Shown one piece after another: positions 25,441-27,799 of a stretch of 64,000 bases of DNA (positions are counted from its first letter, which is position 1; the number at the start of each line of letters is the position of its first letter). The notes under the pieces were generated by a model that was not told the DNA's origin, ran no database searches, and saw nothing but the letters and a program-made list of their open reading frames with translations. The stretch comes from Escherichia coli (GTDB lineage Bacteria; Pseudomonadota; Gammaproteobacteria; Enterobacterales; Enterobacteriaceae), in the NCBI RefSeq assembly GCF_003790525.1, contig NZ_CP033635.1; one strand, written 5' to 3'. Made by a program: the position numbers and the translations under genes.

Positions 25441-25647
25441 CTACCTGATGAGCCAGATGACAAACGCTGTAAGTCCCGCGCCAACAACTATTGGAAAAAG
25501 CCCTTTAGAATAAGCTGCGACGTAATGAACGTTGAGGACAATAAAACGTTCTTTTTGTCCTGTTAGCTTGCCAAGCAGATAAATCACTACTACGCCTAAT
25601 TCCAGGAATATAATGTTCAAAACGGCATTGATGATATTGCTGGTCAT
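25441..25647 (-). CDS. small membrane protein (68 aa, two predicted TM helices)
   Basis: Highly hydrophobic AT-rich ORF directly after the first early gene; weak ribosome-binding site. Confidence 0.4.
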   Translation of the reverse strand: MTSNIINAVLNIIFLELGVVVIYLLGKLTGQKERFIVLNVHYVAAYSKGLFPIVVGAGLTAFVIWLIR

Positions 25648-25655
25648 TTTCGTGT

Positions 25656-26177
25656 TTAGCCGGGCTGGTTGTTTTTGAGTTGCTCCAGTTTTGAAACTCT
25701 GGGGGAGTAAACCTGCTTACCTTTAACGGTCTGGCAGTCCTCCTTGTTTGCCGGTGAAAACTTTCTTTTCTTGCGGTCGTACGTCCAGTAGCTTTTCCAG
25801 TTGTGCCACTCTGGCGGTTCGCACTCCAGTAGTTCGTCGGCTAGTTCGTCCCAGGCTTTGGCGTTAAACCACCATGTACCGTCTGACTTTTCATCTTCGG
25901 GATTTGAGCGCGTTTTGTGACCCGGCATCTGCCCGCGCTGAATGGCGGCGCGTAGCGCAGATTTTGTTACCCCCAGATAGGCAGCCCCTTTTTCCAGTGA
26001 CACAAGTCCTGCGACTGGGCCGTCCAGTCGTAGGGTTGCGCCCTTTTTGTAGGACGGTCTGGTTTTGGTTTCCAGGTGTTCGTTGTCGTTGGCAGCTTCA
26101 ATGAATTCATTGTCCGCGCCATCATCCTGAACCGGTTGAGCGCCAGATAACTCTTTGTCGGCAATAATCTCCCGCAT
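25656..26177 (-). CDS. first early-operon protein, Cox/Apl-like helix-turn-helix protein with acidic N-terminal and basic C-terminal extensions
   Basis: Divergent from the repressor gene; HTH-like LEKGAAYLGVTKSALRAAIQRG; at 173 aa it is larger than P2 Cox. Confidence 0.45.
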   Translation of the reverse strand: MREIIADKELSGAQPVQDDGADNEFIEAANDNEHLETKTRPSYKKGATLRLDGPVAGLVSLEKGAAYLGVTKSALRAAIQRGQMPGHKTRSNPEDEKSDGTWWFNAKAWDELADELLECEPPEWHNWKSYWTYDRKKRKFSPANKEDCQTVKGKQVYSPRVSKLEQLKNNQPG

Positions 26178-26213
26178 TTGTTATCCTCTTGCATTGGTGC
26201 GCTTGTTGCGCCT

Positions 26214-26259
26214 TTTGATGATTTTTGATGACTTGTAAAGATAATCGTACGGTTATCTT
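26214..26259. promoter_or_regulatory. immunity switch region: two direct TTTGATGA repeats 10 bp apart plus a 22-bp near-perfect palindrome
   Basis: Direct repeats at 26214-26221 and 26224-26231; palindrome AAGATAAT-CGTACG-GTTATCTT at 26238-26259; lies between divergent repressor and cox-like genes; P2 C is known to bind direct repeats. Confidence 0.5.
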
Positions 26260-26280
26260 TTGTAGGAGATTAATCCCCAA

Positions 26281-26622
26281 ATGAGTATCTTGTCAATAGA
26301 CTATGCGAAAAAGTTGCGTTTGATACGCAAGACGGAAGGGCTAACTCAAAAGCAATTTGCTGATATTACAGGGTTATCTCTGGCAACTGTCAGGAATTAT
26401 GAGTCAGGGCAAAAGATCGCCAGAGCAAAGATTGTTGAGGCCGTCCTTCAAGTGGATCGGTTTGAAAAATATATGTTCTGGCTAATCAAAGATAAGACGC
26501 TACCTGTTGCCGGTCAGATCGCCCCGGCTCTCTCTCTTGATGGCTCCACGCAGTCGGAGGACGATCAGGTTTCAACCCGCAATACCCAAAAATCACCCCA
26601 ATCAGGCCGCAATGCTGGCTGA
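26281..26622 (+). CDS. phage immunity repressor, P2 C-type (XRE-family HTH)
   Basis: HTH LTQKQFADITGLSLATVRNYESGQ; C-terminal GQIAPAL segment resembling P2 C as I recall it; upstream of and co-oriented with integrase. Confidence 0.75.
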   Translation: MSILSIDYAKKLRLIRKTEGLTQKQFADITGLSLATVRNYESGQKIARAKIVEAVLQVDRFEKYMFWLIKDKTLPVAGQIAPALSLDGSTQSEDDQVSTRNTQKSPQSGRNAG

Positions 26623-26682: not shown

Positions 26683-27687
26683 GTGCTGATCATGTCGATT
26701 AAGCAACTCAAAGACGGACGTTATCAGGTTGATGTAAGGCCTCAGGGGGCGGGAGGAAGGCGGATTCGTAAGATTTTCACCCTGAAATCAAAGGCGCAGG
26801 AATTCGAAAGATACGTTCTTCAGAATTTCCACAATAACCCGTGGCAGGCAAGGCCCGCCGATCAACGGCGGTTATCAGAACTGATTGAGGTGTGGTGGAT
26901 GCTTGATGGTCGTAATCAGGCATATGGTGATACCTACAGAACCAGACTGGAGAAGGTGATACGTGAAATGGGGGACCCGCGCGCCAGCCAGATGACACGA
27001 AAATTCGTGATTGAGTATCGCTCGGATAAGTTGCAGGCGGGACTGATGCCGTCCAGTATCAATCGCGACCTGTGCGCCTTATCTGCGATGTTTTCGTTGT
27101 TAATTGACGCGGAGGTTTATCATAACGAAAACCCTGTGCGCGGAATACGTAAACTCAAGGTTCAGAATACAGAAATGGCCTTTCTTTCAGATGACGAGAT
27201 TGATCGCCTTCTGAAACGGCTTGAGGGTGATGCACGACGCATTGCCATTCTGTGCCTTTCGACCGGGGCCAGATGGAAAGAGGCGTCAACGCTTCGCGGG
27301 GAACACATCGTGGGTAACAGGGTGACGTTCTTTAACACAAAGAACGGGAAATCGCGCTCGGTTCCTGTAGCTGATTCCGTTGTGCCGTTAATTAAAACCC
27401 GCCGGACCGGCCTGTTATATCAGGTTGATTATCTCAGTTTCAGGGAGATCCTTCAGGAGGTGAAGCCCGACTTACCCAAAGGGCAGGCCACGCATGTCAT
27501 GCGGCACACGTTCGCCACGCATTTCATGATGAACGGCGGGAACATCGTCACGTTGCAGAGGATCCTGGGTCACGCCACGATTCAGCAAACGATGACGTAT
27601 GCGCATTTTTCACCGGACTTTTTACAGGATGCGATCAGCTTTAATCCGCTGGCTGAAAGTGTCCATAAACTGTCCATCGACCAGTAA
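26683..27687 (+). CDS. int: tyrosine integrase (P2 Int-like)
   Basis: 334-aa ORF; C-terminal HxxRHT and Y motifs (ATHVMRHTFATH ... MTYAHF); terminal position in the prophage. Confidence 0.85.
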   Translation: MLIMSIKQLKDGRYQVDVRPQGAGGRRIRKIFTLKSKAQEFERYVLQNFHNNPWQARPADQRRLSELIEVWWMLDGRNQAYGDTYRTRLEKVIREMGDPRASQMTRKFVIEYRSDKLQAGLMPSSINRDLCALSAMFSLLIDAEVYHNENPVRGIRKLKVQNTEMAFLSDDEIDRLLKRLEGDARRIAILCLSTGARWKEASTLRGEHIVGNRVTFFNTKNGKSRSVPVADSVVPLIKTRRTGLLYQVDYLSFREILQEVKPDLPKGQATHVMRHTFATHFMMNGGNIVTLQRILGHATIQQTMTYAHFSPDFLQDAISFNPLAESVHKLSIDQ

Positions 27688-27799
27688 TTATTTGTGATAA
27701 TTTGCTCCCCTTGTTTTTGTTTACTTATTGAAAAATAAGGAAATCAGCAAGAGGAGTAAGTACCGTTAAATCTCCTGCGGGCGCTTTTTTTGTCTCCCT
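27688..27799. other. putative prophage-chromosome junction (att region); core not identified
   Basis: Non-coding stretch between the int stop and the dmsA FNR site; the other prophage end is outside the window. Confidence 0.3.

What the first reader, a model, noticed from the sequence alone, without database searches (positions are those of the whole stretch)
26178..26280. Immunity switch region carries both P2-style direct repeats and a 22-bp palindrome
The divergent promoter region between the C-type repressor and the cox-like gene has two TTTGATGA direct repeats 10 bp apart, as expected for a P2 C-type operator. It also has a near-perfect palindrome AAGATAAT-CGTACG-GTTATCTT, which is more typical of dimeric HTH repressors of 186/lambda type. 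The first early gene is also atypical: 173 aa with acidic N- and basic C-terminal extensions, versus the ~90-aa Cox of P2.
Basis: partly seen in the sequence, partly recalled or inferred. Interest (0 to 1): 0.35.

Follow-up and report, generated by a model that had tools for sequence, protein, structure and literature searches.

The report
P2-type prophage immunity switch, dyad operators
This is the lysis–lysogeny switch of a P2-family prophage in E. coli: the palindrome is most likely the main repressor binding site, the short tandem repeats are more likely sites for the Cox protein, and the switch is a variant of a known design rather than a new kind.

Summary
The sequence features are real and non-random. 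TTTTGATGA(T/C) occurs twice at 26213-26232, and a 24-bp palindrome (11 of 12 pairs) lies at 26237-26260. The 173-aa Cox homologue has an acidic N-terminal and a basic C-terminal extension.

About 45 related prophages fall into five repressor specificity classes. In each class the palindrome arms change together with the C recognition helix, while the dyad axis stays fixed. The C-proximal arm recurs as a direct repeat 32-33 bp away, abutting a conserved Pe -35 (TTGACA) inside the first C codons.

So the true P2/WPhi-style direct repeats are GGTTATCTT (26251-59) and GAGTATCTT (26283-91). The palindrome is operator O2 plus an inverted partner, which fits a symmetric C dimer.

The TTTTGATGA repeats lie where P2 has Pc. 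They belong to a 10-bp phased array, and part of it recurs in the att arm next to int. They are probably Cox boxes.

The long Cox belongs to an already recognised larger "group 2"/PHROG family.

Verdict: a new variant of a known switch, of modest interest.

The parts
25656..26177 (-). Long Cox homologue (173 aa), first gene of the early operon. It has a winged-helix core at residues ~56-129, a disordered acidic N-terminal extension and a basic C-terminal extension.
   Evidence: Pfam Phage_Cox E 2.4e-8. phrog_23196 E 1.6e-92 over 1-171. In the AF2 model the core has pLDDT 70-91 and residues 1-45 are below 50. The top Foldseek PDB hit is 4LHF, P2 Cox, prob 1.00. An AGAGGA Shine-Dalgarno lies 6 nt before the ATG.
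26196..26212 (+). Conserved GC-rich dyad/hairpin GGTGCG-CTTGT-TGCGCC between the cox Shine-Dalgarno and the tandem repeats. Its role is unknown.
   Evidence: Flagged as terminator-like. 97% of cells pair across 19 distinct relatives, but covariation is no better than shuffles, 217/500.
26203..26242 (+). 10-bp phased T-rich array: TTGTTGCGCC / TTTTGATGAT / TTTTGATGAC / TTGTAAAGAT. Proposed Cox boxes overlapping Pc.
   Evidence: Lag-10 autocorrelation of 0.46 is in the top 0.2% of 60-bp tiles of the window. Relatives keep TTGT every 10 bp, and one (L027) has exactly one extra 10-bp unit. An 8-12-mer from this array recurs in the att arm in 5 of the 9 loci compared, with lineage-specific variants. 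In the window itself the match is weaker, 11/13.
26214..26219 (+). Tentative Pc -10 (TTTGAT). The implied start is near 26226.
   Evidence: Positional homology only. P2's annotated Pc -10 TATAAT lies 40-45 nt from the cox CAT. The Yersinia relative L049 has a perfect TATAAT at 39-44. The consensus scan found no strong sigma-70 site.
26237..26246 (+). O3: left palindrome arm AAAGATAATC, the inverted partner of O2.
   Evidence: It co-varies with the C class.
26251..26260 (+). O2: right palindrome arm GGTTATCTTT. It lies at about +1 to +10 of Pe.
26267..26272 (-). Proposed Pe -10 (TAATCT on the minus strand), 18 bp from the -35. It overlaps the C Shine-Dalgarno on the other strand.
   Evidence: TAnnnT sits at the same column in all five classes: TAATCT, TAACCT, TATCCT, TAAAAT (reading).
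26269..26278 (+). Weak inverted partner of O1 (ATTAATCCCC). The inner 6 bases match the half-site at 5/6.
   Evidence: Reading. The same AATCCCC-N4-GRGTATCT unit occurs twice in Salmonella class D.
26283..26292 (+). O1: GAGTATCTTG, a direct repeat of O2 32 bp away. It lies in C codons 1-4 and abuts the Pe -35.
   Evidence: GRKTATCTT occurs only 3 times in 64 kb, all of them here. The GAGTAT variant forms both palindrome arms in L037 and L040.
26291..26296 (-). Pe -35, TTGACA on the minus strand, inside the first codons of C.
   Evidence: TGTCAA is invariant across the E. coli, Yersinia and Serratia relatives even though the encoded residues differ. It is CGTCAA in Salmonella class D. P2 and WPhi have the same arrangement.
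26281..26622 (+). P2 C-type immunity repressor, 113 aa.
   Evidence: HTH_3 E 7e-9. PDB 2L49/2XCJ P2 C, E 3.7e-15 over residues 8-92. 49% identity to WPhi C and 34% to P2 C.
26683..27687 (+). Tyrosine integrase, co-transcribed after C as in P2.
   Evidence: phrog_1 E 1e-70; RefSeq annotation.
27660..27677 (+). Two TGTCCAT direct repeats, P2-type Int arm sites, inside the 3' end of int.
   Evidence: They match the reverse complement of the P2-type arm consensus tgTGGaCa (PMC3448106). Sequence; invariant in relatives.
27690..27729 (+). 10-bp phased T-rich array in the att arm, between the Int arm sites and the conserved core. It includes TTTTTGTTTACTT (27714-27726). Proposed Cox site for excision.
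   Evidence: Lag-10 autocorrelation of 0.44 is in the top 0.35% of tiles. It matches switch 26222-26234 at 11/13. It occupies the same position as the annotated P2 Cox site, between core and P' arm.

Best explanation
The 103-bp spacer is the transcriptional switch of a P2-family (P88/PhiECO5-like) prophage inserted upstream of dmsA.

Pe, the lytic promoter for cox, faces leftward. Its -35 TTGACA lies at 26296-26291, inside the first C codons, and its -10 TAATCT at 26272-26267, so it starts near 26260.

The C repressor is a P2 C homologue and probably a symmetric dimer. I propose it binds two dyad-type sites whose centres are 32 bp apart, about three helical turns, so both lie on the same face of the DNA.
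- The promoter-distal site is the near-perfect palindrome O3-N4-O2 (26237-26260), covering about +1 to +24 of Pe.
- The promoter-proximal site is O1 (26283-26292) with a weak inverted partner (26269-26278), covering the Pe spacer and -10.

Two dimers bound there would occlude Pe and maintain lysogeny. Read as half-sites, O2 and O1 are the classic P2/WPhi-style direct repeats. The palindrome exists because in this clade the second protomer of the O2-bound dimer also has a specific half-site.

The TTTTGATGA repeats belong to a separate element, a helically phased array (26203-26242) over the probable Pc promoter (-10 about 26214-26219). I propose it is bound by the long Cox protein, which also binds a related phased array in the att arm next to int (27690-27729). 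Cox would then repress Pc and direct excision, as P2 Cox and 186 Apl do.

Shown by the data: the sequence features, their non-randomness, homology of C and Cox to the P2 proteins, covariation of all three half-sites with the C class, and recurrence of the phased motif at att.

Inferred: actual protein binding, promoter start sites, stoichiometry and regulation.

The overall confidence of 0.7 combines about 0.8 for the C-operator assignment and about 0.55 for the Cox-box assignment.
For: Covariation of the operator with C:
- Roughly 45 related loci fall into five C recognition-helix classes, each with its own half-site at the same positions.
- Class A (SLA[TA][VI]RNYESGQK): AAAGATAMYC-N4-GRKTATCTTT plus O1 GRKTATCTTG.
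- Class B (SVGTIGNYESGYK): CTTCACC-N4-GGTGAAG plus GGTGAAC.
- Class C (IPVNTQRYYETGRQ): TGTCG-N6-CGACA plus CGACAC.
- Class D: AATCCCC-N4-GRGTATCT, twice.
- Class E: GTTACCT-N3-GCTAAC, twice.
- The O1-O2 spacing is 32-33 bp in every class.
- Within a class the arms are invariant, while the central 4 bp take 6-7 different values. That is the signature of a dimer site with an uncontacted centre.
- Cox stays 72-75% identical to the window's across classes A and B in the six-locus alignment, so the palindrome tracks C and not Cox.

Other support for the C operator:
- GRKTATCTT occurs 3 times in 64 kb, all within 54 bp of each other here.
- C is homologous to P2 C over the whole fold.
- The P2 C crystal is a symmetric dimer resembling palindrome binders. 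The published model places one dimer per repeat (PMC2995052).
- The P2 C footprint shows four protected patches, including one about 12 nt downstream of O2, the same side as O3 here (PMC1904263).
- WPhi has 10-bp half-sites 34 bp apart flanking the Pe -10, with the -35 TTGACA beside the C start. WPhi O1 is itself 6/8 palindromic (my reading).

Support for the Cox boxes:
- Both the switch array and the att-arm array show 10-bp phasing in the top 0.2-0.35% of the window.
- Identical 11-12-mers occur in both places with lineage-specific variants: TGTTTTGGCTT in ST131, TGTTTTGGTTT in NU14 and TTGTTTTGATTT in G1/2, each reached by at most 5 of 2000 shuffles.
- Serratia shares GTAATTTGT (13/1000).
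- In the window the match is 11/13 at the homologous offset.
- RDF sites are typically direct repeats one helical turn apart (PMC7498355 abstract).
- P2 Cox binds over Pc and between the att core and the P' arm.
- The Cox core is a Cox/Xis-type winged helix.
Against: - No binding, footprint or transcript-start data exist for this phage group.
- The sigma-70 consensus scan found no promoter in the region. The Pe -10 is weak (3/6) and overlaps the C Shine-Dalgarno, so its conservation could be due to translation signals.
- Pc is placed by positional analogy only.
- The operator and the 5' end of C are physically adjacent and would be co-inherited as a block anyway. The argument therefore rests on the internal triple-repeat geometry recurring in each class, not on linkage.
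- The half-site motif searched was derived partly from these same sites.
- In the window itself the switch/att motif match is weak (p about 0.06). In C11 no shared motif was found.
- The repeats do not resemble the P2 cox-box consensus TTAAAG/CNCA.
- The palindrome would also form a -8.4 kcal/mol hairpin in both predicted overlapping transcripts.
Confidence: 0.7

Rival explanations
1. The TTTTGATGA tandem repeats are the C-repressor operator, in P2 direct-repeat style, and the palindrome is an additional site for a different, 186/lambda-like mode of repression.
For: The repeats are perfect and statistically unusual. P2-type C proteins are known to read direct repeats.
Against: - Mapped C half-sites are 22-34 bp apart at the C-gene end, flanking the Pe -10 or -35. 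These repeats are adjacent and lie at the cox end.
- Relatives in three different C specificity classes share the same sequence here, TTGTGATGGTTTGTTTTGG. The window differs in this region, although its C is 88% identical to that of class-A relatives, with a nearly identical recognition helix.
- The elements that do track C are the palindrome arms and O1.
- No 186-type CI is encoded; the only repressor is 113 aa.
Confidence: 0.05
2. The palindrome acts mainly as an RNA hairpin in the roughly 35-nt overlap of the convergent Pe and Pc transcripts, affecting stability, antisense pairing or translation, rather than as a protein site.
For: It folds as a 10-bp stem with a 4-nt loop at -8.4 kcal/mol, z -2.8 against shuffles. 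Compensatory arm changes between classes preserve the pairing. It lies inside the predicted transcript overlap.
Against: - A hairpin does not explain the third, directly repeated copy (O1), which changes in step with the arms in all five classes.
- In classes D and E both sites are imperfect dyads that keep the same half-site sequence, including the mismatched positions, in both copies. That indicates conservation of sequence, not of pairing.
- The geometry is that of a dimer site: the most conserved arm bases lie about one helical turn apart across an unconserved 4-bp centre.
- The two roles are not mutually exclusive.
Confidence: 0.1
3. The TTTTGATGA/TTGT phased array is not a Cox site. It is only Pc promoter architecture, such as curved T-tract DNA, an UP-like element or the spacer, or a site for a host factor such as IHF.
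For: - It overlaps the probable Pc -10.
- Phased T-tracts bend DNA intrinsically.
- The repeats do not match the P2 cox-box.
- The window-specific switch/att similarity is only marginal.
Against: - The same 8-12-mers recur in the att arm, far from any promoter, and vary in parallel in several lineages.
- The att array occupies the position of the P2 Cox site.
- One relative gained exactly one 10-bp unit, which keeps the helical phase.
- The repeats contain CATCAA on the other strand but lack the TTR element of the IHF consensus WATCAANNNNTTR (my reading).
Confidence: 0.25
4. The palindrome is a Cox or IHF site of a standard P2-type switch.
For: Cox and IHF both act in P2 switch and att regions.
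Against: - The palindrome changes completely between classes while Cox stays highly conserved.
- P2 and WPhi show no homologous element in alignment or annotation.
- RDFs bind phased direct repeats, not 10+4+10 dyads.
Confidence: 0.03

Closest known systems
Bacteriophage WPhi Pe/Pc switch (P2-like, immunity class III)
   Same: - The C proteins are 49% identical.
- The gene order is C then int, convergent with cox.
- The Pe -35 TTGACA lies beside or inside the C start codon.
- Two half-sites lie about three helical turns apart (34 bp in WPhi, 32 bp here). One sits in the Pe spacer and one just downstream of the start.
   Different: - WPhi O2 has no inverted partner, whereas here O2 is half of a near-perfect 24-bp palindrome.
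- The WPhi spacer is 152 bp with an 82-nt transcript overlap. Here the spacer is 103 bp with a predicted overlap of about 35 nt.
- WPhi Cox is 90 aa; this one is 173 aa.
Bacteriophage P2 switch (C, Cox, Pe, Pc; PDB 2XCJ and 4LHF)
   Same: - The repressor fold is homologous (E 3.7e-15), and so is the Cox core.
- The promoters face each other, and the Pe -35 overlaps the C start.
- The predicted transcript overlap of about 35 nt is the same.
- Cox is proposed to act both at Pc and at att.
- The P2 C footprint extends downstream of O2, where O3 lies here.
   Different: - P2 half-sites are 8 bp long, 22 bp apart, and have no dyad partner.
- The cox-box consensus TTAAAG/CNCA is not present here.
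- The Cox here has an extra N-terminal extension of about 55 aa and a C-terminal extension of about 40 aa.
PhiECO5 (E. coli UTI89 prophage), tentative immunity class IX, with 'group 2' larger Cox (Nilsson et al. 2011, PMC3448106)
   Same: - It belongs to the same prophage family at what appears to be the same locus. The near-identical strain NU14 carries the class B switch upstream of dmsA, at coordinates matching those given for PhiECO5 in UTI89.
- It probably carries the same long Cox: the paper says only that group 2 Cox proteins are larger and does not list the group's members in the text I read.
   Different: - That work classified the proteins but did not map operators.
- The window carries a different (class A) repressor/operator set and the most divergent Cox and repeat array of the E. 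coli members.
Controller (C) proteins of restriction-modification systems, e.g. C.Esp1396I
   Same: They are small HTH dimers, structurally similar to P2 C. They bind directly repeated palindromic sites, one dimer per site, to form a tetramer (PMC2995052). That is the binding mode proposed here.
   Different: - The site spacing is 15 bp there against 32 bp here.
- The biological context is different.
- No sequence-level relationship was tested.
186 CI / lambda CI type repressors
   Same: They recognise inverted repeats.
   Different: - They are two-domain proteins about twice the size.
- They use an establishment promoter and CII, and have distal operator sites.
- None of this is found here. 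The repressor is 113 aa, and no further operator copies occur in the 64-kb window.

Membership tests
P2 C-type immunity repressor family | Small (~100 aa) single-domain HTH protein homologous to P2 C over the DNA-binding and dimerisation regions. | tested here: met
   113 aa. phmmer hit to PDB 2L49/2XCJ 'C protein', E 3.7e-15, residues 8-92 against 5-89. HTH_3. phrog_147 E 3e-28.
P2 C-type immunity repressor family | [quoted passage not shown] | tested here: met
   C 26281-26622, int 26683-27687, cox 25656-26177 on the opposite strand, 103-bp spacer.
P2 C-type immunity repressor family | Operator made of two directly repeated 8-10-bp half-sites 22-34 bp apart, flanking the Pe -10 or -35. | tested here: met
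   GGTTATCTT (26251-59) and GAGTATCTT (26283-91) are 32 bp apart and flank the proposed Pe -10. The pattern recurs with class-specific sequences in five classes. Extra feature: an inverted copy at 26238-46.
P2 C-type immunity repressor family | Demonstrated binding to the operator and repression of Pe; immunity specificity. | not testable with these tools
   Needs EMSA or footprinting, reporter assays and superinfection tests.
186 CI / lambda CI-type repressor switch | Two-domain repressor of ~190-240 aa with a C-terminal oligomerisation domain. | tested here: not met
   The only repressor-like gene in the switch encodes 113 aa and aligns with P2 C.
186 CI / lambda CI-type repressor switch | Inverted-repeat operators, with additional distal sites. 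| tested here: inconclusive
   One strong inverted repeat is present. No further copies of the dyad or half-site occur elsewhere in the 64-kb window. The left part of the prophage lies outside the window.
Cox/Apl recombination directionality factor and Pc repressor | Phage_Cox (PF10743) winged-helix DNA-binding core. | tested here: met
   Pfam E 2.4e-8, residues 56-129. The AF2 core is confident. The top Foldseek PDB hit is 4LHF, prob 1.00, TM 0.61 normalised to the target. A sequence-only PDB search found nothing.
Cox/Apl recombination directionality factor and Pc repressor | First gene of the early (lytic) operon, opposite the repressor. | tested here: met
Cox/Apl recombination directionality factor and Pc repressor | Arrays of helically phased repeats both over Pc and in the att arm next to int. 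| tested here: inconclusive
   Both places show phasing in the top 0.2-0.35% of the window. In several relatives they share lineage-specific 8-12-mers. In the window the match is 11/13, p about 0.06. No binding data exist.
Cox/Apl recombination directionality factor and Pc repressor | P2 cox-box consensus TTAAAG/CNCA. | tested here: not met
   The repeats read TTTTGATGA / TTGTnnnnnn. Heteroimmune Cox proteins are expected to differ in sequence specificity (my inference).
Cox/Apl recombination directionality factor and Pc repressor | Size of about 80-95 aa (P2, WPhi, 186 Apl). | tested here: not met
   173 aa. It belongs to a 173-192-aa subfamily found in Escherichia, Shigella, Yersinia, Salmonella and Serratia, which probably corresponds to the larger 'group 2' Cox of PMC3448106.

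The most novel reading that the evidence does not exclude
In this clade of P2-type phages the C repressor reads true dyad operators. That would make the puzzling 'direct-repeat recognition by a symmetric dimer' of P2, Hy dis and WPhi a degenerate form of tandem-dyad recognition, in which one protomer per dimer has lost its specific half-site. The clade would then be a natural, crystallisable model for resolving how C proteins sit on DNA. It would also show on which side of each repeat the second protomer lies. Separately, the acidic disordered N-terminal tail and the basic C-terminal tail of the long Cox might add a function that short Cox proteins lack, such as self-inhibition of filament formation or a partner interaction.
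Probability: 0.45. Interest if true: 0.45.

Novelty: new variant of a known kind. Interest (0 to 1): 0.32.

Why it matters
P2-family prophages are very common in E. coli. This switch family is present over at least 80% of its length in 349 of 5426 complete genomes, including ST131.

The field has a recognised structural puzzle. P2 C is a symmetric dimer that resembles palindrome binders, yet its mapped operators are direct repeats, and it is not known on which side of each repeat the second protomer sits (PMC2995052).

This clade offers operators in which the second protomer has an explicit, co-varying half-site. It comes in five natural specificity classes that pair recognition-helix sequences with half-site sequences, which gives a ready-made table for testing a recognition code.

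Practically, it corrects the operator assignment for annotating and engineering these prophages, and it predicts which prophages are heteroimmune. It does not reveal a new kind of regulatory system.

Tried and rejected
- **Sigma-70 scan.** The consensus scan of 25900-26500 found no promoter. Pe and Pc were therefore placed by comparison with the annotated P2 and WPhi switches and by conservation across classes.

- **Wrong strain assumed, then corrected.** I first took the window to be the LH10-b-1 chromosome and the prophage to be a tail-only remnant. A direct comparison showed this was wrong. The window matches TUM1886, B771 and Ch1, which carry an essentially complete prophage of about 34 kb.

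- **GC-rich hairpin at 26196-26212.** Pairing is conserved (97%), but covariation is no better than shuffles. No claim is made.

- **IHF.** The repeats contain CATCAA but not the rest of the IHF consensus (my reading), so this was rejected.

- **Distal operators.** I searched for 186-style distal operator copies. None occur in the window.

- **PDB sequence search with a long-Cox profile.** It found nothing. Only the fold comparison recovered P2 Cox.

- **Literature.** Searches for work on this prophage group ('P2-like prophage dmsA', 'Xuanwuvirus') found no regulatory study.

- **More distant C homologues with short Cox (Chuche, Shae_phiSM, P88, ESSI2, pro483).** I looked at their spacers. They are too different to align and were not used.

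- **Switch versus att motif sharing.** It is not significant for the window by exact match, nor for C11. This is reported as a weakness.
Full report
**Context**

The window is E. coli chromosome. The 1.1 kb around the finding is 100% identical to more than 15 complete genomes. Window 1-24000 is 100% identical to strains TUM1886, B771 and Ch1.

In those strains a Peduoviridae (P2-family) prophage of about 34 kb lies between dmsA and serS. It carries int, C, cox, early genes, a replication endonuclease, and capsid, lysis and tail genes. The window begins inside its tape-measure gene.

The finding lies in the 103-bp spacer between two genes. One is a cox-like gene at 25656-26177 on the minus strand. 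The other is a small HTH repressor gene at 26281-26622 on the plus strand, followed by int at 26683-27687.

**Observation**

All three described features are present.
- TTTTGATGAT (26213-22) and TTTTGATGAC (26223-32) are adjacent 10-bp units.
- AAAGATAATCGT/ACGGTTATCTTT (26237-26260) is a 24-bp palindrome with 11 of 12 pairs.
- In 5000 dinucleotide-preserving shuffles of the spacer, a palindrome this good arose twice and a tandem repeat this good eight times.
- The cox-like product is 173 aa, and Pfam Phage_Cox covers only residues 56-129. The N-terminal 55 residues are net acidic and the C-terminal 44 net basic.

**Proteins**

The repressor is a genuine P2 C homologue. It matches the P2 C structure 2XCJ/2L49 at E 3.7e-15 over residues 8-92. 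It is 49% identical to WPhi C and 34% to P2 C.

The Cox core is predicted with confidence as a winged helix, and residues 1-45 are predicted to be disordered. The best PDB fold match is P2 Cox 4LHF, followed by excisionases.

The long form is a family of its own. PHROG 23196 has a 174-position profile. Proteins of 173-192 aa occur in Escherichia, Shigella, Yersinia, Salmonella and Serratia. Nilsson et al. 2011 already noted a 'group 2' of larger Cox proteins. They also listed the UTI89 prophage PhiECO5 as tentative immunity class IX, without mapping operators.

**What a P2-type operator looks like**

In P2, Hy dis and WPhi, C binds two direct 8-10-bp half-sites 22, 26 or 34 bp apart. These flank the Pe -10 or -35 at the C-gene end of the spacer (PMC1904268).

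In the P2 record the Pe -35 overlaps the C start codon. O1 and O2 flank the Pe -10, and Pc lies at the cox end. WPhi has the same plan.

Adjacent 10-bp repeats at the cox end are therefore not what a C operator looks like.

**Comparative evidence for the C operator**

I collected the switch from several sources:
- E. coli genomes carrying heteroimmune relatives at the same dmsA locus;
- 34 IMG/VR loci;
- Yersinia, Salmonella and Serratia relatives.

The cox-proximal two-thirds of the spacer is nearly constant. The C-proximal third changes together with the N-terminal HTH of C.

Five recognition-helix classes emerge. Each has its own half-site, placed identically in every class. An inverted pair sits about a fixed dyad axis, and a direct copy of the C-proximal arm lies 32-33 bp away, abutting the conserved TGTCAA.

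| Class | Dyad site | O1 copy |
|---|---|---|
| A (window, ST131) | AAAGATAMYC-N4-GRKTATCTTT | GRKTATCTTG |
| B (NU14/UTI89, Yersinia) | CTTCACC-N4-GGTGAAG | GGTGAAC |
| C (E. coli, Serratia) | TGTCG-N6-CGACA | CGACAC |
| D (Salmonella) | AATCCCC-N4-GRGTATCT | same unit, second copy |
| E (Salmonella) | GTTACCT-N3-GCTAAC | same unit, second copy 32 bp away |

Within a class the arms are invariant, but the central four bases take six or seven values.

The window's O1 variant, GAGTAT, forms both arms of the palindrome in two relatives (L037, L040). It is therefore an accepted half-site variant.

GRKTATCTT occurs only three times in the 64-kb window, all within 54 bp here. That motif was partly derived from these same sites.

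Linkage alone would make the operator and the 5' end of C travel together. The weight of the argument is that an unrelated sequence shows the same triple-repeat geometry in every class. By my own arithmetic, the chance that one fixed 8-mer matches both another fixed 8-mer and the reverse complement of a third at 7/8 or better is about 1e-7 per class.

**Promoters**

TGTCAA (26291-96) is TTGACA on the cox strand. It is invariant in the E. coli, Yersinia and Serratia relatives although the codons it overlaps encode different residues, and it is CGTCAA in Salmonella class D.

Eighteen base pairs downstream on the cox strand, every class has TAnnnT. In the window this is TAATCT at 26272-67.

Pe would then start near 26260. 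That places O2 at about +1 to +10 and O3 at +15 to +24, with O1 in the Pe spacer. The layout is WPhi-like.

O1 also has a weak inverted partner (26269-78, inner 5/6) that overlaps the -10.

Pc is less certain. The Yersinia relative has a perfect TATAAT 39-44 nt from the cox start, the same offset as P2's Pc -10. The window equivalent is TTTGAT at 26214-19, inside the first repeat. That gives a transcript overlap of about 35 nt, as in P2.

The simple consensus scan found nothing, so both promoters are inferences.

**Mechanism for C**

P2 C crystallises as a symmetric dimer resembling palindrome binders. Its authors proposed one dimer per repeat, with the second protomer on non-specific DNA on an undetermined side.

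The P2 C footprint has four protected patches: O1, the spacer, O2, and about 12 nt downstream of O2.

The switch here fits that model exactly and makes it explicit in sequence. The dimer on O2 has a specific partner half-site (O3) on the downstream side. The dimer on O1 has a degenerate partner between O1 and O2.

The two dyad centres are 32 bp apart, which puts them on the same face of the helix. WPhi O1 (GTCACCAATAGGTTAC) is itself 6/8 palindromic (my reading).

**The tandem repeats**

The repeats belong to a 10-bp phased array (26203-26242). Its lag-10 autocorrelation is in the top 0.2% of the window. Relatives have TTGT every 10 bp at the same place, and one relative has exactly one extra 10-bp unit.

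Just past the int stop codon is a second phased array (27690-27729, top 0.35%). It lies between two P2-type Int arm sites (TGTCCAT, 27660-77) and the conserved att core. That is the position of the annotated P2 Cox site.

Several relatives share identical 8-12-mers between the switch array and the att array, with lineage-specific variants:
- TGTTTTGGCTT in ST131, TGTTTTGGTTT in NU14 and TTGTTTTGATTT in G1/2, each reached by at most 5 of 2000 shuffles;
- GTAATTTGT in Serratia (13/1000);
- TTGTCG(G/C)C in a Salmonella relative, a weaker match that is not significant on its own (exact 6-mer reached in 487/1000 shuffles).

In the window the match is 11/13, TTTTTGATGACTT against TTTTTGTTTACTT, at the homologous offsets. 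On its own that gives p of about 0.06.

RDF sites are typically direct repeats one helical turn apart, and P2 Cox binds over Pc and at att. I therefore assign the repeats to Cox with moderate confidence.

**Rivals**

- An RNA hairpin in the transcript overlap is possible (-8.4 kcal/mol). It does not explain O1, or the imperfect but sequence-conserved dyads of classes D and E.
- A Cox or IHF site at the palindrome is excluded, because the palindrome tracks C while Cox is conserved.

**Novelty and verdict**

The phage group, its P2-type switch and its larger Cox were already recognised. The operator layout appears undescribed in the literature I could search. In that layout a C-type repressor has a true palindromic O2 plus a directly repeated O1, seen across five co-varying specificity classes.

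This is a new variant of a known kind. It is of modest interest mainly to people working on P2-family regulation and on how symmetric dimers read direct repeats.

Noticed in passing
L001 (E. coli LH10-b-1, NZ_CP100530) versus window / L056 (TUM1886): LH10-b-1 carries a deletion derivative of the same prophage. It has an identical switch, int and early genes, joined directly to the tail genes. The replication endonuclease, portal, terminase, capsid and lysis genes are missing. The window's own prophage has them.
   Followed up: partly
window 1-~2200; L056 27046-30369: RefSeq marks the tape-measure gene of this prophage as an incomplete pseudogene in TUM1886, and as frameshifted in LH10-b-1. The window starts inside it, and a 438-aa ORF (22-1338) covers the unannotated part. 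The prophage may be tail-defective, or the call may be an annotation artefact.
   Followed up: no
window 26196-26212: A conserved GC-rich dyad, GGTGCG-CTTGT-TGCGCC, is followed by a T-run and was flagged as terminator-like on the plus strand. It lies between the cox Shine-Dalgarno and the repeats. Pairing holds in 97% of cells across 19 distinct relatives when G-U pairs are allowed on the plus-strand sense. Covariation is not above shuffles (217/500). Function unknown.
   Followed up: yes
L027 (IMGVR_UViG_2541047944_000005), switch spacer: One relative has exactly one extra 10-bp unit (TTTGTTTTGG three times instead of twice) in the phased array. This lengthens the spacer by one helical turn and keeps the phase between the cox-side and C-side elements.
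   Followed up: partly
window 25441-25647 (-): The second gene of the early operon encodes a 68-aa, very hydrophobic protein (phrog_14475, function unknown). In ST131-type relatives a different 140-aa gene occupies this slot, so it looks like an accessory 'moron'-like position.
   Followed up: no
L008 (P2) 1932-1958; L009 (WPhi) 612-650: P2 has an unannotated inverted repeat, TTTAGTGC-N10-GCACTAAA, between the Pc -10 and O2. WPhi has TCAAAAGGT...ACCTTTTGA enclosing O2, plus a CCAGTCCCT/AGGGACTGG repeat. WPhi O1 together with the 6 bp toward the -35 (GTCACCAATAGGTTAC) is 6/8 palindromic. I did not find these described as such in the papers read.
   Followed up: partly
window 26281-26292: The annotated C start (ATG 26281) lies 12 nt after the AGGAG. 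P2 and WPhi start at or beside the TGTCAA, and the in-frame TTG at 26290 (ATG in class B relatives) is the positional equivalent. The true start codon is uncertain. Either way, O1 overlaps the first codons.
   Followed up: no
window 27743-27751 versus 26185-26193: A 9-bp exact match on opposite strands, GCAAGAGGA, links the att arm and the cox Shine-Dalgarno region. It is not conserved in relatives and is probably chance.
   Followed up: partly
L056 35318-35458 (outside the window, beyond the prophage ogr end): A Hok/Gef family toxin gene lies between the prophage end and serS in the strains that carry this prophage.
   Followed up: no
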